Shown piece after piece: positions 8,171-36,249 of a DNA stretch of 64,000 nt. Made by a program: the position numbers and the translations under genes. Origin of the DNA: Naegleria gruberi (taxonomy: Eukaryota); assembly GCA_000004985.1 (NCBI GenBank), contig GG738852.1; one strand, given 5' to 3'. The number at the start of each line of letters is the position of its first letter. Position 1 is the first letter of the stretch. Below the pieces are notes generated by a model. That model worked only from the letters and a program-made list of their open reading frames with translations, was not told where the DNA came from and ran no database searches.

Positions 8171-9979
8171 ATGAAACGAATCAATAACAAGGTTATCTTT
8201 CTAATAGCTACTGTAATTGTAGCTTTGCTTGCATTAGGAGTTTCCGTCTCCTTGCAACAACAAGTATCTGCTCAAGCAGGTGCCCAAGCTAGTAGTAGTG
8301 GTGCTTCTGTTAATGCTGGAGGCCAAGCCAGTGCTGGAAATCAGAATAACACTCAAGGTGGTGGACAAGGGCAAGGACAAGGACAGCAACAAGGTGGCAC
8401 ACAAGGACAGAACAATACATCTACTCAAGAGTTGAACAAGTTTTTGAATCGTATTGATACTGATTTGAGAATGATTGGAAGCTTTATTGATAGATGTGCA
8501 GGTTTGCAGCAACAAGGCCCAGGTGGTCAACAAGGTGGTCAACCAGGTGGTCCTGGACAAGGACAATTTGGTCAACCAGGCGGACAAGGTGGAATGCCAC
8601 AACAACCTCAACCAATTCAAGACCAAGGACCTCCAACTCAACAACAACAACCTGAATCTATGTGGTATTCAATGTTGGGAATGATTGGCTTACAACAATC
8701 TCCTCAACCACAACTTTCTGCCCAACAACAATTCCCACAACCTTCTCCTCAACCACAGCAATCACCAGCTCAAGCTCAGCAATCACCACAACCTCAACAA
8801 TCACCGGTTCAAGCCCAACCATCTCCACAACCACAGCAATCACCAGCCCAACCTCAACAATCACCACAACCTCAACAATCACCAGTTCAAGCCCAACCTT
8901 CTCCACAACCTTCTACAGTTGGAGCTGGTGCTGGTAGTCAAGAAACTAGACAACAAATTGCTTGTGGAATTGTTACCAAGGCTGCCACTAACTTGTTGAA
9001 TAATACCATGAGTTTAGTTTCCACTGTTAGTAACAATACCCAAATCAGCTCATCACTCAAGCAAGCTGTTGCTCAATTGCTTATTAAGGCAAATTTATTG
9101 TCTTCCAATGCCAAGAATTCAAGTTGGACCAATTTCCTTACCTCATTTGATCAATATGCTGTTAGTTTCTCAGCCTTGCAACAATCTCTCTCCAGACGTC
9201 AACAACAAGGCGGCCAACAAGGAGGACAAGGACAACAAGGCGGCCAACAAGGTGGCCAACAACAAGGTGGTCAAGGACAGCAAGGTGGTCAATTCGGTCC
9301 TCCACAACAAGGTGGTCAACAAGGACAATTTGTGCCACCTCAACAACAAGGTGGTCAACAAGGTCAATTCGGTCAGGGACAACAACAAGGCGGTCAACAA
9401 GGCCAATTCCCTCCACAACAAGGTCAAGATCAACAACAATATTCCTATCCACAACAAGGTGGTCAACAAGGTCAACAATATCCACAACAGCCTTATCAAG
9501 GACAATATGGTCAAGGACAACAAGGAGGTCAACAACAATATCCACAACAGCCTTATCAAGGGCAACAACAATATGGTCAAGCAGGCCAATATGGTCAACA
9601 AGATCAATATGGTCAAGGTCAACAAGGTGGACAACAATATGGTCAACAGTATCCTTACCAAGGACAACAAGGAGGTCAACAACAATATGGCCAAGGTGGA
9701 CAACAATATGGTCAACAAGATCAATACGGTCAAGGACAAAGTCAATACGGTCAACAATATCCACAACAGCCTTATCAAGGTCAACAAGGACAAAGTCAAT
9801 ACGGTCAAGGACAACAAGGAGGTCAACAACAATATCAACCACAGTATCCAACACCTTTCTACCAAAATCCATACCAATACAGAAATCCATACTTTTACCA
9901 AAGCCCAAGTTATCAATACTATCAACCACCACAACAACAACAACAATATGAAGGCTATTATCCAGAATATTATTACTAA
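8171..9979 (+). CDS. Secreted Q/G/P/Y-rich low-complexity (prion-like) protein
   Basis: N-terminal signal/TM (VIFLIATVIVALLALGVSVS). Followed by degenerate repeats QQGGQQGQF, SPQPQQSPAQ and QYGQGQQGGQQQYPQQPYQGQ. Ends in a Y/P-rich tail. Confidence 0.55.
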   Translation: MKRINNKVIFLIATVIVALLALGVSVSLQQQVSAQAGAQASSSGASVNAGGQASAGNQNNTQGGGQGQGQGQQQGGTQGQNNTSTQELNKFLNRIDTDLRMIGSFIDRCAGLQQQGPGGQQGGQPGGPGQGQFGQPGGQGGMPQQPQPIQDQGPPTQQQQPESMWYSMLGMIGLQQSPQPQLSAQQQFPQPSPQPQQSPAQAQQSPQPQQSPVQAQPSPQPQQSPAQPQQSPQPQQSPVQAQPSPQPSTVGAGAGSQETRQQIACGIVTKAATNLLNNTMSLVSTVSNNTQISSSLKQAVAQLLIKANLLSSNAKNSSWTNFLTSFDQYAVSFSALQQSLSRRQQQGGQQGGQGQQGGQQGGQQQGGQGQQGGQFGPPQQGGQQGQFVPPQQQGGQQGQFGQGQQQGGQQGQFPPQQGQDQQQYSYPQQGGQQGQQYPQQPYQGQYGQGQQGGQQQYPQQPYQGQQQYGQAGQYGQQDQYGQGQQGGQQYGQQYPYQGQQGGQQQYGQGGQQYGQQDQYGQGQSQYGQQYPQQPYQGQQGQSQYGQGQQGGQQQYQPQYPTPFYQNPYQYRNPYFYQSPSYQYYQPPQQQQQYEGYYPEYYY

Positions 9980-10047
9980 ACTAATTGTGAGAAACTAACT
10001 GTACATATTATATACATCTCGTGAGATTAATAAAACTATTTATATAT

Positions 10048-24588: not shown

Positions 24589-25004
24589 TGTACAAATAAA
24601 TCAAACATGTAAAACAATAGTTGTGCTGATTTGTCACTCTTTGTGAAATGATGGCATTTAGCACCACTGAATATCTCACATTTTGTTGATACTGTTGTAG
24701 ATGAAGTATTCCTTCGAGATATCATCATTAATATTACCCATGTTGATTATTTTCATGATTCCTTTATGGAAACCGATAGAGTTTCGTTTTTCAACACAAG
24801 GTTTCTGTCCTGTCATTCATCATCCAATCAAACAAGAGAGTCAACAACAAACCACTGTTGAACCTTCATCATTCACACTATCATCCATAATGGTACCCTG
24901 AAAGTCATTCTAATTAGAGAAAATTACATTCACTAGCTTTTCGTATCGCTATTGGATTTTTCTGTTGAAAACGTTTTTTTTTTGAATTGAAAAATCAAAC
25001 AAAA

Positions 25005-27920
25005 ATGAGTGGTTTGCCCTCAACTTTAGAATCTCCCTCCAAAATTTCTTCAACAGAAGCTACTCCCTTCATCATGCAACAACAACAGGAACCAACAACA
25101 ACATTTTCAGTTACTACAACAACAACAACACCAGTGGACACTAATAGTGACGAGTATATAGATAACACTAATCCTAACCATACAATAATAGATCATCATT
25201 CTCTTTCGTCGGAATCAATGACAGAAAAAACACTTGTAAATAATTCTTTATTCTCCTCACCAGCATTGGTTACTAACGATGCAATTGATCATCATGATGA
25301 AAATAATAGTGATGGAATGACCAAATTAACTTCTCCACAAACTCCTCAACAACAATCACAACAACAACCAATATCATCATCGTCGGCGATGGAAACAGGT
25401 TCAGACAGTTCTTCTCCATGCTCCTCTCCAACAAGTCCAACCATGATGATCACCGATACGAGCCCACCAACAAGTCCTACCGATAATCTTCTTCAAAGTA
25501 ATATTAAGAGAAAGAAATCAGTAACATTTCATCCGAAAATTGTTACCTCTTCGAGACTTCTCTCTCCAGCAACACCACACATCCAAGATGAAGAAACTGA
25601 TGATGCAGTAACAACTCCAGAAAATGATCCATCCAATCATGGCACTAATTCATCAATCTTTTTCAAACATCCATTCTGGTTAGTGAATGCATTTCAAAAA
25701 TCTTGGAGAGCCAAATTACAGGACATGGATGAAGAGGATGAAAATTCTCCCAATTCTCTCACATTGGAGAAGGTTATGAGTCGTTCCATTGATATTGAAA
25801 GCCCTATTTGGTACTTTATTCCAAAGAAATTAATTACCAAATACTCCTCATCACCATTGAATGAAAAACTTGTTGCCGATTCACAAACTACCATCATTGA
25901 TTCGTATGATATTGAGGAGAGTGTACTGGATCCTAAATATGAAGTCTACTTTAATTATTGGGCTCAATTGAGGGATACACTATTCTTAAAGCTGAGGAAG
26001 GAAAATAGGAAAAAGTCTGAAAAGAATTCTTCAAATATTCAATTGTGGCATGGATATCATAATGCTGCCATTCTTTCATTCTTTATTGAGACACAGAGAG
26101 AAAGTTTATGTGATTTGCAGAAGGCTATTCACTTTCGTATTTTTGACCTCTTATTTGAATCAATAGCTCAAAATACAGCTGAAAAGGAGGATAATGTTAC
26201 AGTTATTTCAGATCAAGAATTAACATTGATGAAAACAGTTTGTTTTCTCTATATAGAAACCGACCATTTATTCCATGCTTCGAGTGTGCTCTACCATATT
26301 ATTAGAAATTACTGTTTCACTCCAGAGATTTATCAGAAACTTGTTCAGAAATGGAATAAGGCTTCTGGTACCTCTTCTTCACCTAGTAGTAGTACTGCTA
26401 ATGGCAATAACGAAAACAAGGCCGAGGCTTTCCCTGCTGTCAATATGGACTGGAAGGTCATTTATTTGGTCCTTCGACTAATTTCAAAATATATCGAACA
26501 CAAACAAAATAACTCACAAAGAGAAAATTTCACTTCCCTTTCTCAATATGAAGAATATTGTAAGGTTGGAAAAGGATTTTCTCAACTTTCCATAGATGAT
26601 TTGACTTTCTTCAGAAGTGCAATCATTGAAATAATATGTAAATTCAAGCCAAATCATGATCTCTATAGTTTATGGAAAGGAAAATGGGAAATTCCAGAAA
26701 GTGCTGCTGCTATGAACCCATTAAAGTTTCCAAAACTCGAATCTGAGCAAGAAATCTTGGAAAATTGCTTTTACATTTTACATTTGGTTATTTCCAAAGA
26801 ACGAGAAAGAATGGTCTCTGAAAAGGAATCTCCAGCCACAAATCTGGAAAAGGATTCCATTAAGGATTTCATTCGTGGAAAACCATCAGAAAACAAATCA
26901 TCACTAACTCTAATGGGGCGATTACGAAATTGGTTACACAACCTCAAATCATCATTGAGGAGAACTAATTGGCGTCGTTTGATCATGTACATTGCTGGAA
27001 TTGTTGGAATTGGTATTATAACCAAGATGATTTACCAATTCTTCTCTCCTAGAAGTACTTTCATTGATGAGAGGAATGATTTTAGTTTGAGTAGGAATGA
27101 ATTACATCTTCCTTACTTGACCAATACAACCAGCCAAACTTTCTTACCATCTCCATCACTGCATCAAAGAACTGATTTTGCAGATACTAACAACTTTGGC
27201 TTACCTAAAACCCTCGGAGGTCAAGTCACCAAATCGACAACATCATCAATTATTCCACCACCTATTTCAACACTTGGAACTAATAGCAAGCAACATCCTG
27301 AAAATCTCAATCTCTCCAAAGATAATATTCAAACCATTTTAAAGCCAAGTACATTCAAAGAAGATTTTTACAAAAAGATTGAGTCACCAAATAAGCAACC
27401 AACTGATATTATTGTTGAAAGAGATTTCAATTATATTACCTCATTGAGAAATGAAATGGATCACGTATTTGATGTTACAGAAAGGATGAAAAAGCCAACT
27501 CAACCAAACAAAGTGGAACAACCAAGTAGTACAAACAAGAAACCAATTGTTACCTTCCAGGTAGGCGAGCAACATGATAGAATAGACGATGATGATCTTT
27601 CTCTATCTCATAATAAGAAGCAATCTTCAACAAAACTTTCGCACGACGAGGATCCATCAAACTACACACCAAAGAGTATTGGAGATGAGCTTCCTCCATT
27701 CACTGGAGGTACAAATTCTAATTTGGCTTCCTTTATTGGAACAGAACAACCAGTTCTTACTAACAAGGCAGCAGCCACTGCCAATAACAGACTCAACAAC
27801 CTTAACAGAACTGTCAATGCAACTGCCAACAGAGTGCCAAGACAAACACCAAGAAAGACAACAAATACACCAAATACCACTGGACCAAAGGTGTTCGGCA
27901 AAAGAAAGCAAAACTTGTGA
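25005..27920 (+). CDS. Large low-complexity protein with one predicted TM helix
   Basis: Track ORF starts at TTG 24987; ATG 25005 (MSGLPSTL). T/S/Q-rich N-terminus. TM IMYIAGIVGIGIITKMIY near residue 660. N/T-rich C-terminus. Confidence 0.4.
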   Translation: MSGLPSTLESPSKISSTEATPFIMQQQQEPTTTFSVTTTTTTPVDTNSDEYIDNTNPNHTIIDHHSLSSESMTEKTLVNNSLFSSPALVTNDAIDHHDENNSDGMTKLTSPQTPQQQSQQQPISSSSAMETGSDSSSPCSSPTSPTMMITDTSPPTSPTDNLLQSNIKRKKSVTFHPKIVTSSRLLSPATPHIQDEETDDAVTTPENDPSNHGTNSSIFFKHPFWLVNAFQKSWRAKLQDMDEEDENSPNSLTLEKVMSRSIDIESPIWYFIPKKLITKYSSSPLNEKLVADSQTTIIDSYDIEESVLDPKYEVYFNYWAQLRDTLFLKLRKENRKKSEKNSSNIQLWHGYHNAAILSFFIETQRESLCDLQKAIHFRIFDLLFESIAQNTAEKEDNVTVISDQELTLMKTVCFLYIETDHLFHASSVLYHIIRNYCFTPEIYQKLVQKWNKASGTSSSPSSSTANGNNENKAEAFPAVNMDWKVIYLVLRLISKYIEHKQNNSQRENFTSLSQYEEYCKVGKGFSQLSIDDLTFFRSAIIEIICKFKPNHDLYSLWKGKWEIPESAAAMNPLKFPKLESEQEILENCFYILHLVISKERERMVSEKESPATNLEKDSIKDFIRGKPSENKSSLTLMGRLRNWLHNLKSSLRRTNWRRLIMYIAGIVGIGIITKMIYQFFSPRSTFIDERNDFSLSRNELHLPYLTNTTSQTFLPSPSLHQRTDFADTNNFGLPKTLGGQVTKSTTSSIIPPPISTLGTNSKQHPENLNLSKDNIQTILKPSTFKEDFYKKIESPNKQPTDIIVERDFNYITSLRNEMDHVFDVTERMKKPTQPNKVEQPSSTNKKPIVTFQVGEQHDRIDDDDLSLSHNKKQSSTKLSHDEDPSNYTPKSIGDELPPFTGGTNSNLASFIGTEQPVLTNKAAATANNRLNNLNRTVNATANRVPRQTPRKTTNTPNTTGPKVFGKRKQNL

Positions 27921-28925: not shown

Positions 28926-31900
28926 TTATTGGTTATGTGGTGTTTGTTTCTCCAAATGGTCAAGAATGGCTTTGGCTGATGGTCTTGATTGATAATCTTT
29001 GGCCAACATGGAAATTGTTAAATCAATCAAGTCTTGAGAGTATTTTCCAGCGTTTGTTAATTTTTCTTTTAGGAATTCTTTAACAGTTTCTGTTTCTTTC
29101 ATCATGTAGAGTTGACTGATTGAGGTATCTGTATCTTTACTCATAATTTGGTATATAGTCACACCTAAACTGTATATATCAGTTGTTGAATTGTATTTTC
29201 CACCGACTGACATTTCAGGAGACATGAAAAGAGGTGTACCACAGTAAGAAACATTTACAGATCCTTGATTTTGACGAGCTAAACCAAAGTCAGCAACAAT
29301 GATGTGGACATCATTTTCATCGATTGATTTGATAAAAATGTTATTTGGTTTGATATCTCTGTGAATTAATGACATGCTTGAGTGAATGTAATCCAAAGCT
29401 TGACATGATTGATCCAAAATCTTTCTAACTATTATTTCTGAACAGTATCCCTCACACTTGATAAGATTGGTTAAATCTCCCTTTTCATAATAATCCATAT
29501 CAATACACAATAATTGATCATTGTCAACAAAGAATTCATTGACTTTGAGAATGTAAGGGTGATTGATATTCATCAATTGAGCCCCTTCTTTCATAATTGA
29601 ATTCAAATCTTCAAAGGATGTGAATTTCATAACTTTGAGCGCCTTTTCATGGTTGTTTCTACTGTCTGTTGCTCTAAAAACTGATCCAAATCCGCCTTGA
29701 CCAATCTTTGACATGTTTTTATATCTTTGTGAAATTGGATCAGACGAGGTGGATGTATTTGAACCTGCAGAATTGTTGTGGAGTGGAGCAAATGACATAC
29801 TGTTGTTTGATGGGAAATCCAAGGAAGCTGATGTTTGCAATTCAATATAAAAACTATTGTTAGGGAAGTTGGCAGTGTTTTGAGAACTTTGTAACTGTTC
29901 TTTTTGGTGTAATCTTTGTGATTCTTGATCTAATTGTTCCTTCTTTCTCTTTGCCTTGATTCTCAATAAGACAACTATTATTACAATCACAACAATAATA
30001 ATTATCAATAGGAGAATGCCTAGAGAGAGGCCAACACCTAGTCCTATACCAAGAGATTGATCGTCTGTTGTGATTCTCTTTGATACTGTTGGTACTGTCG
30101 GTGTTGATGAAGATGTAGCTTGGCTATCAATTACACCAAAAGAAGTAAGGTGAGTCGTATAACAGTTAATATTGAAATATAAAGTATTAGACTCATTCTT
30201 GGTTAAAACAAAGTTAGTAGTTAATCCATCATAGGCCCACTTATTATTGGTTGTATCATAATATGTACAGGTAATGTTACTAGTAGAATTGGCCTTATAC
30301 ACCAAGTTATTGAAATTGATTACAATCTTATTGTTAAGCTTGTTAACTTTAACTAAAGCACCACTCAATTGAACAGAAATATCAATCAGAGGACTAATCA
30401 GGTCAGAAGATACGTATGAAGAGTAGCTAATATCATAAGAAAGAGTATTGTCGAAACCAAGAGCAGATAATTGACTTGAAAAATCAGATGGGAATACTAC
30501 ATTGGTTCCAATCATGGAAACAGCCTTTCCATCCAATTGGTTTAGCAACAATCCTGTTTGCATGTTTGTTTCTCCTTGAGGCAAATCTGTGTGAATAATA
30601 GAGTTGCCAGTAGTATTAGAACTTTGAGAAATTAACAACTTATTCAAGTTGGCCATATTATTGACGAATGGAGCAGGGGAAGAAACGGTGCTCATAATAT
30701 TGAACAAATCTACAATCTCATTGTAATGTTCATTGTCAATAATGAAAGGAAGAACTGAAGGGGAGTAAATATTTGAGGATGCACTAATACTCGAAAAGAT
30801 GTAAGTCATCCAAGATGAAAGACTTGAACTTTGAGTGGAAACAGTGCTTGGTGATAGCGTATTCAATAATACATAGATTGTTCTCAAGGGTGGAACGACC
30901 AAGGCAATAATCTTCTCATCGACGTTATAACCTGTGTTCTTCATTTGATACAGAACTGAACTCATATCAACCAATAATACTACTATTTGATTGGAGGTTG
31001 TTGAATCAAGTAAAGAAGGCAATAGGGCTATTGGAGTGTCTTGAATAAATAAGGACAACAAGGATGAGATATAATTTGCTGTATAAATAGAAATTTGCTT
31101 TTGAGATTTCAACAGTTGATATTGAGTATTGAGATAGTTATATCTGGAAGTGAATGAATTATCAGCAGCAAGACCAGAGGGCAATTTTACAACAATGTTG
31201 TACTTAGCAATTGCTAAAGAACCACTTGTTGTTACAAGCTTGACAATTACATTTAAATTTCCACCATTAACAAATGGAAGTGGTGTTACAGTTACTGATT
31301 TTGGAGTGTTTGAAAGAATTCCAACTCTTGAAGTACCATTATTAACTTGCATAATGAAACCAGATATCTTCTCCTTATTATTCACACACGAAATGACAAA
31401 TGAAGTTTCATAGGCAACATTTGAATTCAAAGGATCATATAATTGGCAACTGAATCTTGGCATCAAATCAACAGTTGTGATCACATTTGCAGATGATTGA
31501 CCTTGCCCATTTGTTACCTTCAATTGAATCTTGTAGTTCTCTCCCTGAATCAATCTAGAACTATCTATCAACAAGTTACTTTGAATGTTGGTTGAAAATG
31601 CAGTATTCCTTGCCGATTGTTGTATAACAGCTGAAACACTATTCTCACCATTGAAAAGTTTGATTGTTCCTTGAATCAATTCCCATTTCAATTCAGAAAT
31701 AGTTGATGCAGAGGTTATAGTGGCCTGAATTAACAAACTCTTTCCGTAAGGATAAACGTCTGGAATGGTATTTAGTTTAATGGCGGGAACATTCTGAGGT
31801 ACATTTACAACACTGATTGTTCCGCTCAGAGTCTGACTAGCTATACCAGAAACCGAAGCAGTTAAACTGATAGTGTAATCTCCTACAGGTAAATTACCAG

Positions 31901-32981
31901 CACCAATTGTCAATGTGTTTGTTGTTCCACTGCAAATGCTTGCAGAAATTTGCTGCTTGGTCTGCTTATCAAAACATGACCAGGAGTATTGAAGTGGAGT
32001 AGTAGAAGGTAAATTATTTAAATATGGATCAAAAACAAAAGTTCCAATTACAATACTGCTTGAAATTGAATAAGTTCTCTCAATATTTGTAAGAAGCAAA
32101 CCGAGTTGATCAAATACAGAGTAAGAAACAGGTACTTTTAAGGAGTATTGAGATGCTTCCACAATGCTAGTGGTGAGGGATCCAGTATATTGGGAGGCAA
32201 AATTATTGGTAAATCTGAATATCTGCTTGCCATAGAGTTGTGTTGACGTGTATGCTAAACTTCCTTCAAATACATTTTGTAAAGTTGTGCCTTGTGTTGG
32301 TACATTAAATTCAATGACACATGTTTGACCAGCACATGTATAACCTCCTGATTGTAAACCAGATACTAGCTCAAAGTTTTGATGAGTTGATACTGTATCA
32401 ATGGAATATTTCTGAGAGGTAGTATAGGTGTTATATGAATTAGAACTGGTTAATGAGACGTTGAGTACCTTTGAATTTCCTTCCATGGAGGAAATAGAAT
32501 TTAGGTAATTGGTTGGAATGATGACAACAGGATTGTTTGTGTTATTTAGAAATAGAGACTGAATTTGTGAAGGACAATTATTGCAATTCCAAACTTGTGA
32601 AATGGACTTGAAACCATAGAATAGATTACTAGTACTTGATCTTACTATGAGTGGCTGATTGAGTGTTAGTGGTGACAGGACACTATTAAGGGAACTTCCA
32701 GATGCTGTCGATAGAATAGAAATTGCACCCATTGCATTCACTTGTAACACCACATTACTTGGTATTAGATTCAATGTTGTTCCGTGCGTTATAGAATGAT
32801 TGAAACCAAGATAAATTCTCAAGCCTTGAGAAGTGAAATCACAACTAACCATGGAAGAATCTCCAAAGGATAAAATATCATTTTGTGAGAAGAAATCTTG
32901 ACAATATTTGGTACTAGATGGTATGTATGCCAGTATTGGAGGATGGTATGGCCAGAATTGTGAGATCACAAGATGTTTCAA
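28926..32981 (-). CDS. Giant receptor-type protein: large ectodomain with GPS/GAIN autoproteolysis motif, single TM, C-terminal Ser/Thr kinase (5' end unresolved)
   Basis: Continuous 1351-codon ORF. GPS motif CTYYDTTNNKWAYDG...NINCYTTHLTSFGVI at ~30290..30135. TM LGIGLGVGLSLGILLLIIIIVVIVIIVVLL at ~30044..29958. Complete kinase domain (GQGGFGSVF, HRDIKPNNIF, DFG, SPE) at ~29714..28929. No signal peptide or ATG lies near the 5' end, and the first Met is ~residue 44. The true 5' exons may be the NHL/EGF gene upstream. Confidence 0.7.
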   Translation of the reverse strand: MKHLVISQFWPYHPPILAYIPSSTKYCQDFFSQNDILSFGDSSMVSCDFTSQGLRIYLGFNHSITHGTTLNLIPSNVVLQVNAMGAISILSTASGSSLNSVLSPLTLNQPLIVRSSTSNLFYGFKSISQVWNCNNCPSQIQSLFLNNTNNPVVIIPTNYLNSISSMEGNSKVLNVSLTSSNSYNTYTTSQKYSIDTVSTHQNFELVSGLQSGGYTCAGQTCVIEFNVPTQGTTLQNVFEGSLAYTSTQLYGKQIFRFTNNFASQYTGSLTTSIVEASQYSLKVPVSYSVFDQLGLLLTNIERTYSISSSIVIGTFVFDPYLNNLPSTTPLQYSWSCFDKQTKQQISASICSGTTNTLTIGAGNLPVGDYTISLTASVSGIASQTLSGTISVVNVPQNVPAIKLNTIPDVYPYGKSLLIQATITSASTISELKWELIQGTIKLFNGENSVSAVIQQSARNTAFSTNIQSNLLIDSSRLIQGENYKIQLKVTNGQGQSSANVITTVDLMPRFSCQLYDPLNSNVAYETSFVISCVNNKEKISGFIMQVNNGTSRVGILSNTPKSVTVTPLPFVNGGNLNVIVKLVTTSGSLAIAKYNIVVKLPSGLAADNSFTSRYNYLNTQYQLLKSQKQISIYTANYISSLLSLFIQDTPIALLPSLLDSTTSNQIVVLLVDMSSVLYQMKNTGYNVDEKIIALVVPPLRTIYVLLNTLSPSTVSTQSSSLSSWMTYIFSSISASSNIYSPSVLPFIIDNEHYNEIVDLFNIMSTVSSPAPFVNNMANLNKLLISQSSNTTGNSIIHTDLPQGETNMQTGLLLNQLDGKAVSMIGTNVVFPSDFSSQLSALGFDNTLSYDISYSSYVSSDLISPLIDISVQLSGALVKVNKLNNKIVINFNNLVYKANSTSNITCTYYDTTNNKWAYDGLTTNFVLTKNESNTLYFNINCYTTHLTSFGVIDSQATSSSTPTVPTVSKRITTDDQSLGIGLGVGLSLGILLLIIIIVVIVIIVVLLRIKAKRKKEQLDQESQRLHQKEQLQSSQNTANFPNNSFYIELQTSASLDFPSNNSMSFAPLHNNSAGSNTSTSSDPISQRYKNMSKIGQGGFGSVFRATDSRNNHEKALKVMKFTSFEDLNSIMKEGAQLMNINHPYILKVNEFFVDNDQLLCIDMDYYEKGDLTNLIKCEGYCSEIIVRKILDQSCQALDYIHSSMSLIHRDIKPNNIFIKSIDENDVHIIVADFGLARQNQGSVNVSYCGTPLFMSPEMSVGGKYNSTTDIYSLGVTIYQIMSKDTDTSISQLYMMKETETVKEFLKEKLTNAGKYSQDLIDLTISMLAKDYQSRPSAKAILDHLEKQTPHNQ

Positions 32982-33225
32982 TTATTCCAGTAATGAATCT
33001 GCTGTTTGTTCAGGAAGGGGAAAGTGTTCGAATTATAATTTATGTTCCTGCAATACAGGATATACTGGTCCAAATTGCGATATTGCTATTTGTTATGGAA
33101 AATTGCAAAATGACACCACCGTTTGTTCCTCTTTTGGTGATTGTATTTCCTATAACAACTGCCAATGCAAACTTGGATATAGAGGAAACCAATGTCAATT
33201 TCTGCAAATGGCAGATATCAGGTGA
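32934..33225 (+). other. Inverted EGF-repeat coding segment (plus strand) at junction of NHL/EGF gene and GPS-kinase ORF
   Basis: The plus-strand frame encodes GGWYGQNCEITRC..CSGRGKCSNYNLCSCNTGYTGPNCDIAICYGKLQNDTTVCSSFGDCISYNNCQCKLGYRGNQCQF. These are 2.5 tenascin-type EGF repeats, paralogous to those encoded on the minus strand at 33230–33800. It is bounded by ccag| (32933) and CAG|GTGAGA (33225/6), with an in-frame TGA at 33223–33225. Confidence 0.4.
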
Positions 33226-36200
33226 GATACATAACCCATTTGAGCTACAAATATTACTGTTGTTTGAGGCTACATCATTACAGATAGTATATTGGCAATT
33301 ACTTCCAACATATCCTAAATTACATGAACATAAATTTGGACCTACACAAGTTCCATTACCACAACCGAGCCCGAATAATGCATTTCCCACTGTGTTTTTA
33401 ACACCTGCACACAAATATGATTGACACTCTGAGTCAAAATATCCTGCATTACAAGTACAATTATTAGAACTTAAACAGGCTCCTTTTCCAGAGCAAACGT
33501 TGGAAGATGCTGATGATTTTCCAAAGCATGCTGTAATTTGACATTCAGTTCCAGTATACCCATTCGAGCATGAGCATGTGTTGGGGAGAGAGCAGTTTCC
33601 CCTACCTGAACACACATTTGAATCATTAGAATATTTACCATAGCAGATGGCAAGTTGACAATTAAGCCCAGAAAATCCATTGAAACAGGTACAATTATTT
33701 GGAGAGTTACACAATCCATGGCCACTGCAAGTGGTAAGCTCATTAGAAACTCCAAAACAGGAGGCAATACATTGAGTGAAATTCCCATTAAGCCCATAAC
33801 CACTCGGACAGTAAGGAGCCAATCTTCTTATTCTGTTGTTCCCTTTATCGCTGATTAGTATTTCTCCACTATTGGCAATAAAAGTTGTTTGATATAAATA
33901 GTTGAATAAGGCACTTGTAGAGTTGCCTATGTCACCATATAATCCATTAATTGAATCATCTCCTCCAACAGCATTAATATTTCCATCAGGACCAATAACC
34001 CGAATCGAATGTTCATTAGTATAGTAAATAAAATCTCCATTCTTAGAAACAGCTACACTAGTCGTGTGCATACAGGCACCAATAGCTGGAACTCCAATAG
34101 CAAATTCATCACAGGAGCTAGTTGACCCACCAACAGTACTAATAATTCCAGTGTCTGCTGAAACTTTTCTTATTCTAAAATTTTCAGATATAAAAATATC
34201 ACCCAAACTACTAATTGCCAATGAGGAAGTGTATTGTAATTGAGCAGATGTGGCCAGAACATTGTTTCCATAAGTTCCACTTACTCCAGTTCCTGCAACC
34301 GGGTACACAGTTCCGCTCAGTGTTATTTTGTAAAGTCTTGGATTGGCAGATGTAAGAACAAGAATTTCACCAGTTATTGGTGATAGAGCAATACATTGAA
34401 CATCCAATGGAGCATTGATTGCTAGTGTTCCATCAGGGACAATGTTTTTGTCTCCATTTCCAGCTGTTGTTAAATGTGAGTTCACCAAAGCAAACAATTC
34501 CACTTACCAATTGTAGTTATTATTCCATTCGTTGAAACCTTGCGAACTCGGGAATTCATAGAATCTGCAATATAGACCTCACCTGAGCCACTGACTGCCA
34601 CACAACGAGGAGAGTTTAATTGGGCATTAATTGCCAAACCCCCATCTCCACTAAATCCACTTGTGCCATTGCCCGCAAATGTTACTATAGTATTATTAGG
34701 ATATAAAATTCGTATTCTGTCATTGAAGGTGTCTGATAACATTATTAAGCTTGATAATTTTTACAATTTAAAACTTACCAGCAATATATATTTCCCCAGT
34801 ATTAGCAGCTACTGCATGTTGTGGTTGTGCTAATTGAGCATTTATTCCCAATCCACGATCTCCAGAAAATGAGCCACCATGACCTGCAATAGTTGTAATA
34901 ATTCCTGAGCTATAAGAAACAAGTCTCACTCTGTTATTGTATTGATCTATTTAAGAATACTGTGTTAATTAAAGAGTAACAAAAGAATACGTACCTACAA
35001 TATATAAATCTCCAGAGGTATAATTGGCTGTGAGGGAAAATGGTTTAATTTGTACATTCTTTGCTAGCCCACCATTTCCAAGATCACCAATTACTGGAGA
35101 AACAGGACATATTCCATTTCCTGTTATAGTTGAAATAATTCCATTCGAATCTATTTTCCTTACAACACATTCACCATCAGAAGAAAAGAAAATATCACCC
35201 TTAGAAGTGGTGGTAATTGAAAATGGATATGATATCAATGCATTGATGGCCAACCCTCCATCTCCTGAGTTCATTATTAATTTTCTAATATTAAAAACGA
35301 AACAAACCTGAATAGCCAGCAGTGCCTGATCCTGCTATTGTAATAATTGTAGAATTGGATTTAAAAATTCTTCTAATTCTATGAGTTTCATAGTCAGCAA
35401 TAATAAAGTCACCATTTGATGCTATAGCAAAGGAGCGAAAACGACTAAGATAACTTGAAGTTGCAATAACGTTATCTGAATTGTATCCACAGAATCCATA
35501 AACTCCAGCTTTACAAAATTAATTCATTGTCCTTAATAACAATACTTACCAATGGTTGAAATAATTCCATTAGCGCCTATTTTTCTAAGTAAACAATTAA
35601 AAGAATCAGCAAAGTAAACAGTTCCATCATTTGCAACATTAATACCAAAAGGAAATCTCAAGTTGGAATTAATTGCCAATTGACCATCTTTTTGTTTTAA
35701 AATCAAAAAGAAAACTCAATACTTACCAGCACTGTACCCTTCGGTTCCATAAACCCCAGCAACAGTAACAATAGTTCCATTAGTGAATATCTTTCTAATT
35801 CTATGTTTTTCAGCTTCTGTGAGATACAAATCCCCATTAGCACTGAATGATATTCCCATCGGATTCATTAACATGGCATTAATAGCCAATGCTCCATCGC
35901 CATAATTTGAACTGGCAAAACCAGTTCCTGCATACGTTGTAACAATTCCATTCGCAATCTTTCGAATGAATGCACCATATGAAAGAGGATTGAAAAAAGA
36001 TCCGAATAAAGTATTTTCAGCAATGTACACATGTTGAGTAATTGGATGTATAGCAACTGCACTTGGTGAGTAAAGAGAGACACGTAAAGGATCATATCCC
36101 TCTCCCTTTACATTCAATCCACCAGCAATGGTAGAAACATTATAGCTTGGATAGAATGGTGTTGTTACTCCTGCAACAGCATGTGGTTGGTTACAAACAA

Positions 36201-36249
36201 TTGAGAGTGCAACCACCACAGCAAAAAGAATCGATACCAAAGTGTGCAT
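33040..36249 (-). CDS. Secreted NHL-repeat (beta-propeller) protein with tenascin-type EGF repeat array; 7 exons
   Basis: join(36249..35727,35687..35550,35508..35308,35264..34995,34946..34779,34732..34508,34463..33040). Signal peptide MHTLVSILFAVVVALSIVC. About 12 NHL repeats (GDGG.A..A.L..P.G....NG..Y.AD..N.RIRK). Then ~7 EGF repeats (CSG.G.C.....C.C..GY.G..C). All six introns are phase 1 and 39/41/43/48/46/44 nt long, with GTAAGT/GTTTGT/GTACGT donors. EGF periodicity is lost at 33226 (..CSSNGLCIS|PDICHLQKLTL..), and the last 60 aa are non-EGF down to the TAA at 33040. Confidence 0.75.

What the first reader, a model, noticed from the sequence alone, without database searches (positions are those of the whole stretch)
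32900..33260. ~300-bp EGF-coding segment in inverted orientation at the junction (possible micro-inversion or misassembly)
Between 32934 and 33225 the plus strand, not the minus strand, carries clean tenascin-type EGF periodicity (C.G.G.C.....C.C..GY.G..C) with ~70–85% nucleotide similarity to the minus-strand repeats just to the right. The segment is bounded by an acceptor-like ccag and a donor-like CAG|GTGAGA, and it ends in an in-frame TGA. The left flank (≤32981) is solid minus-strand coding, so no plus-strand gene can be assembled. The minus-strand gene reads this segment as non-EGF filler (PDICHLQKLTLVSS...) down to a stop. The simplest explanations are a recent local inversion or inverted duplication within an EGF repeat array, or an assembly error in a repetitive region. 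Either would explain why the two flanking ORFs do not join.
Basis: seen in the sequence. Interest (0 to 1): 0.65.

Follow-up and report, generated by a model that had tools for sequence, protein, structure and literature searches.

The report
Micro-inversion splits a Naegleria receptor-kinase gene
A ~265-bp piece of an EGF-repeat array in a Naegleria gruberi receptor-kinase gene sits flipped, with small losses at both ends, cutting the gene in two; the un-flipped version survives on a 1.2-kb orphan scaffold of the same assembly, so this is an ordinary structural allele that matters mainly for annotation.

Summary
The + strand at 32941-33209 encodes the tail of one EGF unit plus two complete six-cysteine units, scoring above Pfam thresholds, inside a minus-strand gene.

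The window is the N. gruberi NEG-M reference scaffold. The annotated protein XP_002680894.1 (966 aa) is 100% identical. It ends by reading the flipped block antisense for 55 codons to a stop at 33040.

A second protein from the same assembly, EFC35246.1, lies on a 1,203-bp orphan scaffold and is collinear. It matches 33600-33211 (-), then 32941-33210 (+), then 32945-32526 (-) at 98-100% identity. It also holds 4 + 12 residues (QCFN; DLDGPNAILSAS) that the window lacks. The second piece is a motif conserved in all paralogs.

So the window carries a derived inversion of 264-269 bp. It has deletions of about 10-11 and 38-42 nt, and apparent 4-nt and 1-nt junction microhomologies. It separates the signal peptide, NHL and EGF half from a 4-kb ORF for the rest of the ectodomain, TM helix and Ser/Thr kinase.

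Most likely this is a heterozygous, gene-disrupting allele made by template switching or microhomology-mediated end joining. It is not an inverted duplication, a plus-strand exon or a switch. An artefact is not fully excluded. Interest is low.

The parts
32941..33209 (+). Inverted block. On the + strand it encodes the tail of EGF unit 5 (GWYGQNCEITR, 32941-32973), EGF unit 6 (32974-33090), EGF unit 7 (32991-33195 region: 33091-33195) and 'QFLQ' (33196-33207). The block's ends are ambiguous by the junction overlaps (32941/32945 .. 33208/33209).
   Evidence: tblastn of EFC35246.1 (P0008): aa 136-225 match 32941..33210 on the + strand, 88/90 identical. Pfam EGF hits are above cut-off.
32941..32944 (.). 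Left junction. The four bases GGAT can be read both as the start of the block (GGA T of G136-W137) and as the end of the downstream half (AT CC of Y238-P239 on the minus strand). This is an apparent 4-nt microhomology. Three of the four bases are fixed by the protein sequence of the intact allele; the fourth is a wobble position in both readings.
   Evidence: The + and - HSPs overlap at 32941-32945. The window's only junction-adjacent change, Tyr238 to His (CAT), is what the junction itself creates.
33209..33209 (.). Right junction. A single T is shared by the block's last codon (AT- of Ile225) and by the CA- of Gln132 on the minus strand. The resulting codons read Met on the + strand and His on the - strand.
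   Evidence: HSP ends at 33210 (+) and 33211 (-).
33211..33810 (-). Genuine minus-strand EGF array. It comprises a Cys-rich lead-in, units 1-4, and the head of unit 5, which ends at its fourth Cys (TGC 33213-33211).
   Evidence: Translation. Pfam EGF_2 and EGF_Teneurin. 130/130 identity to P0008. Coordinates.
33040..33210 (-). Spurious C-terminal tail of the annotated protein XP_002680894.1. The 55 codons HLQKLTLVSS...CIAGT are the antisense reading of the flipped block, ending at stop TAA 33042-33040.
   Evidence: The P0027 sequence ends with exactly this peptide. Translation.
33811..36249 (-). 5' half of the gene: start codon, signal peptide and NHL-repeat propeller, with six introns of 39-48 nt (GTAAGT/GTTTGT/GTACGT ... 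AG).
   Evidence: Sequence. Intron coordinates and spliced translation. 100% identity to P0027. Pfam NHL and TEN_NHL.
28926..32944 (-). Uncoupled 3' half of the gene: post-EGF linker (from ...PPILAYIPSSTKYCQDFF), about 900-aa ectodomain, GPS-like motif (30269-30132), TM helix (30053-29964) and Ser/Thr protein kinase domain (29723-28956). It has no start codon or signal peptide of its own. No annotated protein for it was found in the collections.
   Evidence: ORF 28926..32981. Pkinase 176.9 bits. P0008 aa 238-377 match 32945..32526, 138/140. Exact look-ups with four Met starts were negative. Coordinates.
32945..32981 (-). Chance upstream extension of the downstream ORF (KHLVISQFWPY). It is an antisense read of the flipped block, not coding sequence.
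   Evidence: Homology to the intact allele stops at 32945/32944.

Best explanation
The window is the Naegleria gruberi NEG-M reference scaffold.

**Ancestral state (shown).** The locus encodes one receptor of about 2,370 aa. Its parts, in order, are: signal peptide, NHL propeller, seven tenascin/teneurin-type EGF units, a large ectodomain, one TM helix and a Ser/Thr kinase.

**State in the main scaffold (shown).** The last 2.3 EGF units (264-269 bp) lie in reverse-complement orientation. About 10-11 nt (codons QCFN) and 38-42 nt (codons DLDGPNAILSAS) were lost at the two breakpoints.

**Consequences, read from the sequence.** Transcription and translation from the gene's start run into the flipped block. 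It is read antisense as 55 unrelated residues and stops at 33040. The 4-kb ORF for the rest of the ectodomain, the TM helix and the kinase is left without a start or signal peptide. It is also in a different frame.

**Allele status (inferred).** This is a null or truncating allele. The intact allele of the same strain survives as a 1,203-bp orphan scaffold centred on the rearrangement. That is the pattern expected when reads of the second haplotype cannot be merged across a structural difference. The strain would therefore be heterozygous.

**Origin (inferred).** There are two candidate routes:
- One replication template switch: copying the opposite strand between two inner switch points and returning further on. 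This gives an inversion flanked by two deletions in a single step.
- Two breaks rejoined by microhomology-mediated end joining after resection.

The event is probably recent. The flipped block and the 1,351-codon downstream ORF are still stop-free.
For: **Identity of the window.**
- P0027 (XP_002680894.1, NAEGRDRAFT_63886) and P0028 are 100% identical to window ORFs. Both lie on one 938,756-bp contig.
- P0027 ends in the antisense tail.

**Collinear allele.**
- P0008 (EFC35246.1, N. gruberi, 1,203-bp contig) reads ...CISPDICQCFNGWYGQNC...GNQCQFLQIDLDGPNAILSASYPPILAYIPSS....
- It aligns to the window as 33600-33211 (-) 130/130, 32941-33210 (+) 88/90 and 32945-32526 (-) 138/140. Residues 132-135 and 226-237 are absent from the window.

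**Polarity of the change.**
- The piece missing from the window matches a motif kept in every paralog after the last EGF, 'CQYH.V.LD.S.A.IYS'.
- QCFN supplies the fifth Cys of unit 5.
- The collinear form is therefore ancestral.

**One gene, not two.** The reconstructed 2,371-aa protein aligns in a single HSP across the junction with N. fowleri and N. gruberi paralogs, for example aa 744-2360 against P0004 at 38% identity.

**Not a duplication.** EGF coding occurs nowhere else in the window. Identities between units are a uniform 52-65%.

**Allelic pattern.**
- The orphan contig spans about 390 nt on one side and 430 nt on the other side of the block.
- It differs by two single-base amino-acid changes away from the junctions (I/V, S/R).
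- Naegleria is described as a heterozygous diploid (PMC9928731).

**Mechanism.**
- The overlapping HSP ends give GGAT and T as junction overlaps.
- The four-point template-switch model produces reverse-complement fragments whose outcome depends on the order of the switch points (PMC5453318).
Against: - The DNA of the orphan scaffold could not be fetched. Breakpoints, microhomology and deletion sizes are therefore inferred from its protein, and one of the four 'GGAT' bases is a wobble position.
- No reads, depth or transcripts were available. Heterozygosity and the reality of the flipped form in the cells are inferred, not shown.
- The orphan contig is low quality at both ends: a 1-nt frameshift in its last ~25 nt and an odd first residue. 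Its two internal differences could therefore be sequencing errors rather than allelic SNPs.
- An allele that has been dead for long should have decayed. The intact 1,351-codon ORF means the event is recent, or the downstream half is still used in some way.
Confidence: 0.77

Rival explanations
1. Artefact. The real genome holds only the collinear form. The flipped form in the main scaffold comes from a rearranged clone or a consensus or assembly error.
For: A collinear version exists in the same project. No read evidence is available here.
Against: - The EGF units are only 52-65% identical, too diverged to confuse an assembler.
- A 265-bp block with both junctions fits inside single reads, so the arrangement must be present in the reads.
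- The flipped form, not the collinear one, was placed in the 939-kb scaffold. This suggests it had the better read and mate-pair support (inference).
- Paired deletions with junction overlaps are what a cellular repair or replication event leaves. A rearrangement inside an E. coli clone could look the same, though.
Confidence: 0.12
2. The two forms are recent paralogous copies at different loci, one intact and one rearranged, rather than alleles.
For: Only 1.2 kb of the collinear copy is assembled, so its wider context is unknown. The family has several members in N. gruberi.
Against: - The known paralogs are only about 30-37% identical, whereas the orphan is 98-100% identical.
- The orphan contig is centred on the rearrangement and stops about a read length away. 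That fits a haplotype bubble better than a separate locus whose flanks should also have assembled.
Confidence: 0.07
3. The flipped allele still makes a full-length receptor. A cryptic 385-nt intron (donor GTAATG at 33281, acceptor AG at 32897) would remove the unit 5 head plus the flipped block in frame. This would yield a receptor with four EGF units.
For: This splice is in frame and cuts exactly at the end of EGF unit 4 (...SNCQYTI|YFFSQND...). It would explain why the downstream 1,351-codon ORF is intact.
Against: - The six real introns of this gene are 39-48 nt. All have G at +5 and T at +6. The cryptic donor is GTAATG and the intron would be eight times longer.
- The product would lack the conserved post-EGF motif and the 'PPILAYIPSSTKYC' stretch.
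- There is no transcript evidence.
Confidence: 0.04
4. The block is functional as it lies: a plus-strand exon or antisense gene, or a programmed invertible switch.
For: There is an open 105-aa + strand ORF with acceptor- and donor-like strings at its ends.
Against: - Both flanks are minus-strand coding up to the junctions. The 'splice sites' are antisense codons of that coding sequence.
- No other + strand EGF or partner exon exists in the window.
- No inverted repeats bound the block beyond 1-4 nt.
- The deletions of 4 + 12 codons make the flip irreversible.
Confidence: 0.01

Closest known systems
Short-range replication template-switch mutations (four-point model, Loytynoja & Goldman 2017, PMC5453318) and the related FoSTeS/MMBIR models (PMC2621351)
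   Same: [quoted passage not shown] With the inner points nested, one event yields an inversion flanked by two small deletions, with short homology at the switches. This matches the structure seen here.
   Different: The events catalogued in humans are mostly tens of bases; this one is about 265 bp. The switch-point homologies here are inferred from a protein, not from the ancestral DNA.
Two-break inversion repaired by microhomology-mediated (alternative) end joining
   Same: An inverted fragment, loss of a few to tens of bases at each junction, and 1-4 nt junction overlaps.
   Different: It needs two simultaneous breaks about 310 bp apart. It cannot be told apart from template switching using the sequence alone.
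Orphan 'haplotig' scaffolds in assemblies of heterozygous diploids
   Same: A read-length contig, near-identical to a main scaffold, centred on a structural difference and carrying its own partial gene model. Naegleria is reported as a heterozygous diploid (PMC9928731).
   Different: Allelic status has not been verified by depth or linkage here.
Teneurin/tenascin-type EGF arrays (Pfam EGF_2, EGF_Teneurin, EGF_TEN)
   Same: Six-Cys units of 38-43 aa with C-x-C-x2-G-[YFW]-x-G-x2-C ends. Pfam scores are above cut-off on both the flipped and the un-flipped units.
   Different: The context is a protist NHL-EGF-ectodomain-TM-Ser/Thr kinase receptor family, not a teneurin or tenascin.
Site-specific invertible DNA switches (Hin/Gin-type segments, shufflons) and scrambled or inverted gene segments of ciliate germlines
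   Same: A coding segment found in the opposite orientation within a gene.
   Different: There are no boundary inverted repeats or pointers. Content was lost at both ends, so the change is irreversible. The genetic code is standard with long ORFs. No recombinase was seen among the ORFs scanned.

Membership tests
EGF-like domain (Pfam EGF_2 PF07974 / EGF_Teneurin PF23106) | Six cysteines with canonical spacing | tested here: met
   Two full C-x10-C-x5-C-x5-C-x-C-x8-C units in the + frame at 32974-33195.
EGF-like domain (Pfam EGF_2 PF07974 / EGF_Teneurin PF23106) | Profile score at or above Pfam's gathering cut-off | tested here: met
   EGF_Teneurin 36.3 bits against a cut-off of 24.3. EGF_2 34.5 bits against 22.1. 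Both for the 105-aa + strand ORF.
Inversion relative to an ancestral collinear sequence | The same sequence is present in the reverse orientation between unchanged flanks, compared with a reference form | tested here: met
   P0008 aligns minus / plus / minus at 98-100% identity. Paralogs show that the collinear order is the family norm.
Simple balanced inversion | No gain or loss of sequence at the breakpoints; re-inversion restores the original | tested here: not met
   Residues 132-135 and 226-237 of the intact form are missing. No choice of breakpoints gives a continuous ORF on re-inversion.
Inverted duplication | A direct-orientation source copy is retained | tested here: not met
   Only one match to the block in the window. 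Its units are 52-65% identical to every neighbour, the same as the neighbours are to each other.
Microhomology-associated rearrangement (template switch / MMEJ) | Short homology shared by the joined ends at each junction | tested here: inconclusive
   The overlaps GGAT (32941-44) and T (33209) are deduced from overlapping HSP ends and from the codons allowed by P0008. The ancestral DNA could not be retrieved.
Allelic haplotig of the same strain | Comes from the same genome project and is near-identical in the flanks | tested here: met
   EFC35246.1 and EFC48150.1 are both N. gruberi GenBank proteins, on contigs of 1,203 bp and 938,756 bp. Flank identity is 130/130 and 138/140.
Allelic haplotig of the same strain | The two forms occur at about 1:1 read depth in the same flanking context | not testable with these tools
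   No reads are available.
Site-specific invertible switch | Inverted repeats (recombination sites) at both boundaries | tested here: not met
   The repeat finder shows only diverged similarity between EGF units and no boundary repeats. The junction overlaps are 4 nt and 1 nt.
Site-specific invertible switch | A dedicated recombinase encoded nearby | not tested
   The ten largest other ORFs were scanned and gave ordinary eukaryotic domains. The scan was not exhaustive.
Spliceosomal intron of this gene that contains the block | Donor, acceptor and length like the gene's other introns | tested here: not met
   The real introns are 39-48 nt with GT[ATC][ATC]GT donors. The in-frame candidates around the block are 160-457 nt and all lack G at +5.
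GAIN domain with GPS motif (side observation, 30132-31184 minus strand) | A helical subdomain followed by a beta-sandwich whose last strands carry C...W...C..HL[TS].F, placed just before the first TM helix | tested here: inconclusive
   - The AF2 model (pLDDT 73.9) has helices at residues 11-188, then strands at 196-353 ending at the HLT motif.
- The motif is conserved in the paralogs.
- It ends 26 residues before the TM helix.
- Against this: Pfam GPS scores 13.8 bits, below the cut-off of 22.5, and Foldseek against PDB gave no hit at E<=0.001.

The most novel reading that the evidence does not exclude
The flipped form is not just a dead allele. One reading is that it is kept because it makes a secreted NHL-EGF ectodomain fragment (982 aa), which would act alongside the full-length receptor made from the other allele. 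Another is that template-switch inversions inside EGF arrays recur and diversify or silence members of Naegleria's large NHL-EGF-GAIN-like receptor-kinase family in clonal lineages.
Probability: 0.05. Interest if true: 0.45.

Novelty: new member of a known kind. Interest (0 to 1): 0.2.

Why it matters
The value is mainly practical.

- **Annotation errors in the N. gruberi reference.**
  - The last 55 residues of XP_002680894.1 are an antisense artefact.
  - The 4-kb TM + kinase half of the gene has no protein model in the collections searched.
  - The only correct record of the EGF-to-ectodomain junction is a 'partial' protein on an orphan scaffold.
  - Kinome and receptor censuses, and domain-architecture counts, will therefore mis-score this gene as a secreted NHL-EGF protein, and will miss a receptor kinase.
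- **A structural difference in strain NEG-M.** The locus is a concrete case, apparently resolved to near base level, of structural difference within the sequenced strain. The species' heterozygosity has been used as an argument for sex.
- **An example of mechanism.** It is a tidy natural case of an inversion flanked by deletions, of the kind predicted by template-switch models, and larger than most catalogued cases.

None of this is surprising to a specialist.

Tried and rejected
1. **A 'seamless' re-inversion of 32933-33206.** It gave a perfect-looking EGF unit, CISPDIC-H-C-IGGWYGQNC. P0008 showed that this was partly coincidence. Bases 32925-32945 are the minus-strand codons HPPILAY of the downstream half, and the true unit reads QCFNGWYG.
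2. **Rescue by splicing.** I enumerated every in-frame GT..AG pair across the block. None resembles the gene's real introns. This is kept only as a low-probability rival.
3. **Recent inverted duplication.** Rejected on the identities between units and the single tblastn match.
4. **Ciliate-style scrambled gene or invertible switch.** Rejected: standard genetic code, no boundary repeats, and loss of content.
5. **Searches that led nowhere.**
   - The search for homologous proteins with the 1,351-aa ORF returned only distant kinases and missed P0008.
   - The look-up of encoding contigs found no record for the MCM ORF, a neighbouring ORF, P0008 or P0027. The orphan scaffold's DNA was therefore not obtained.
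   - Exact look-ups of the downstream ORF from four Met starts were negative.
   - The N. gruberi genome papers (Cell 2010; Res Microbiol 2011) are not held.

Full report
**What is at the coordinates.**

The + strand between 32908 and 33225 is an open 105-aa frame. Its translation...GWYGQNCEITR CFNYSSNESAVCSGRGKCSNYNLCSCNTGYTGPNCDIAI CYGKLQNDTTVCSSFGDCISYNNCQCKLGYRGNQC QFLQ..., holds two complete six-cysteine EGF units and the tail of a third. It scores above Pfam's cut-offs: EGF_Teneurin 36.3 bits against 24.3, and EGF_2 34.5 against 22.1.

This is not something EGF-coding DNA does on its reverse strand. The antisense of the true minus-strand array next door has 5-16 stops per frame and no cysteine pattern. 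The block itself has 2-5 stops in every minus-strand frame.

Whole units are 52-65% identical, and only 39-61-nt stretches reach 70-79%.

**Context.**

The window is eukaryotic. It holds MCM, myosin, a DEAD-box helicase, kelch and C2/TerD proteins and is about 35% G+C.

To the right of the block, the minus strand carries a gene with a signal peptide, NHL repeats and an EGF array. Six introns of 39-48 nt interrupt it. To the left lies a 1,351-codon minus-strand ORF with a TM helix and a protein kinase domain (Pkinase 176.9 bits). It has no start or signal peptide of its own.

The window proved to be the Naegleria gruberi NEG-M reference. XP_002680894.1 (NAEGRDRAFT_63886, 966 aa) and XP_002680724.1 are 100% identical to window ORFs, and both lie on one 938,756-bp contig. 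The annotated 966-aa protein ends ...CISPDIC-HLQKLTLVSSISKFALAVVIGNTITKRGTNGGVILQFSITNSNIAIWTSISCIAGT. Its last 55 residues are the flipped block read backwards, down to the stop at 33040.

**The decisive comparison.**

I ran an exhaustive HMMER search with the downstream ectodomain. It found four full-length paralogs at about 30-34% identity, in N. fowleri and N. gruberi. All have the layout NHL - EGF array - ectodomain - TM - kinase.

It also found one 384-aa fragment at 98% identity. That fragment is EFC35246.1 / XP_002667990.1, 'predicted protein, partial [Naegleria gruberi]', on a 1,203-bp contig. It is collinear...CNDVASNNSNICSSNGLCISPDIC-QCFN-GWYGQNCEITRCFNYSS...GYRGNQCQFLQ-IDLDGPNAILSAS-YPPILAYIPSSTKYCQDFF....

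Against the window it splits into three pieces:
- aa 2-131 match 33600-33211 on the minus strand, 130/130 identical.
- aa 136-225 match 32941-33210 on the plus strand, 88/90.
- aa 238-377 match 32945-32526 on the minus strand, 138/140.

Residues 132-135 (QCFN) and 226-237 (DLDGPNAILSAS) have no counterpart in the window.

**Which form is ancestral.**

QCFN supplies the fifth cysteine of EGF unit 5. The 12-13-residue piece after the last EGF corresponds to a motif kept by every paralog: CQYHGVQLDGSTSVIYSS, CQYHQVYLDISNALIYSY, CQYHEVYLNTSSAIIFSF and so on.

I built a protein from the window's 5' exons, the P0008 bridge and the downstream ORF (2,371 aa). It aligns in one BLASTP segment straight across the junction with the paralogs, for example aa 744-2360 against the N. 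fowleri protein at 38% identity.

The collinear form is therefore ancestral, and the two window ORFs are halves of one gene. The window carries a derived inversion of 264-269 bp with deletions at both ends.

This also explains why no re-inversion restores a continuous frame. The two flanks sit in different frames because 3n+1 and 3n+2 bases were lost.

**Anatomy of the junctions.**

At the left junction, the + and - matches overlap at 32941-32945. The bases GGAT can belong either to GGA-T(GG) of Gly136-Trp137 or to (T)AT-CC(T) of Tyr238-Pro239. The window's His in place of Tyr238 is exactly what joining at that point produces.

At the right junction, one T (33209) is shared between AT- of Ile225 and CA- of Gln132. 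That creates the window's Met on the + strand and His on the - strand.

These are apparent 4-nt and 1-nt microhomologies. They are deduced from the protein of the intact form, because its DNA could not be fetched.

They are not splice signals.

**How it most likely arose, and what it does.**

An inversion flanked by two small deletions, with short junction homology, is the outcome of a single switch-and-return of the replicating strand onto the opposite template when the inner switch points are nested (four-point model, PMC5453318; related MMBIR model, PMC2621351). It is also the outcome of two breaks rejoined by microhomology-mediated end joining. The sequence cannot separate these two routes.

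Functionally, the allele in the main scaffold can encode at most a 982-aa secreted NHL-EGF fragment with a nonsense tail. The kinase half is uncoupled from it.

The orphan contig is about as long as two overlapping reads. It is centred on the rearrangement and is identical or nearly so in the flanks. It carries two single-base amino-acid differences away from the junctions. This is the pattern of a second haplotype that the assembler could not merge. Naegleria is described as a heterozygous diploid (PMC9928731).

I therefore read the locus as heterozygous for a recent gene-disrupting structural mutation (confidence about 0.77). It looks recent because the block and the 4-kb downstream ORF are still free of stops.

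**Rivals.**

- *Cloning or consensus artefact (0.12).* It cannot be excluded without reads. Against it: the repeats are too diverged to mislead an assembler; both junctions fit within single reads; and it was the flipped form that was placed in the large scaffold.
- *Paralogous rather than allelic copy (0.07).* It fits poorly with 98-100% identity, when the known paralogs are at 30-37%.
- *Rescue by a cryptic 385-nt in-frame intron, 33281 to 32897 (0.04).* It is possible on paper but unlike the gene's real introns.
- *A plus-strand exon or a programmed switch (0.01).* It is contradicted by the minus-strand coding that abuts both junctions, the lack of boundary repeats and the loss of sequence.

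**Comparison with what is known, and verdict.**

The EGF units are ordinary tenascin/teneurin-type units. The rearrangement is an ordinary class of mutation, and the orphan scaffold is an ordinary by-product of assembling a heterozygous genome. I found no paper in the held library describing this locus or this receptor family.

It is a new instance of a known kind. It is useful for correcting the annotation of NAEGRDRAFT_63886, and as a documented structural difference within strain NEG-M. It is not surprising. Interest is 0.2.

**Side observation.**

Just before its TM helix, the downstream ectodomain ends in CTYYDTTNNKWAYDGL...NINCYTTHLTSFGV. This motif is conserved in all paralogs. Pfam GPS matches it weakly, at 13.8 bits against a cut-off of 22.5.

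GAIN domains are described in adhesion GPCRs and PKD1-like proteins, always just before the first TM helix (PMC3321182). A GAIN-like module in front of a single-pass Ser/Thr kinase may deserve its own look.

Noticed in passing
[not shown]
   Followed up: partly
window 34733-34778 and 34685-34732 (-): The annotated model XP_002680894.1 skips 16 residues (DTFNDRIRILYPNNTI) by using a later acceptor for intron 5. The 46-nt intron 34778..34733 keeps a canonical NHL blade (IADTFNDRIRIL) and gives 982 aa rather than 966 aa.
   Followed up: partly
window 28926-32944 (-) and 24987-27920 (+): Two long intact ORFs have no 100%-identical N. gruberi protein in the collections searched, although neighbouring genes do. 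One is the TM + kinase half of the split gene. The other is a 977-aa ORF whose best matches are N. lovaniensis and other Naegleria-like proteins at 56-63% identity. They look like gaps in the reference annotation.
   Followed up: partly
window 8171-9998: The G+C content rises to 42% and long ORFs overlap on both strands. The cause is imperfect tandem repeats of 12-117 nt (CAACAAGGTGGT... and similar) that encode a Q/G/P-rich low-complexity protein.
   Followed up: partly
orphan scaffold protein P0008 (EFC35246.1), last 7 residues and first residue: The partial protein ends ...NNPVSSFQPIT where the window reads ...NNPVVIIPTNY. This is a 1-nt deletion in the last ~25 nt of the 1,203-bp contig. 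The protein also starts with G where the window has R. Both suggest low-quality read ends in that contig.
   Followed up: no
model m046a027a994a (window 30096-31184, -): The only high-probability Foldseek match was the UNC5b ZU5-UPA-death domain structure 3g5b (probability 0.92, TM-score 0.23, E-value 0.09). Significance is unclear.
   Followed up: no
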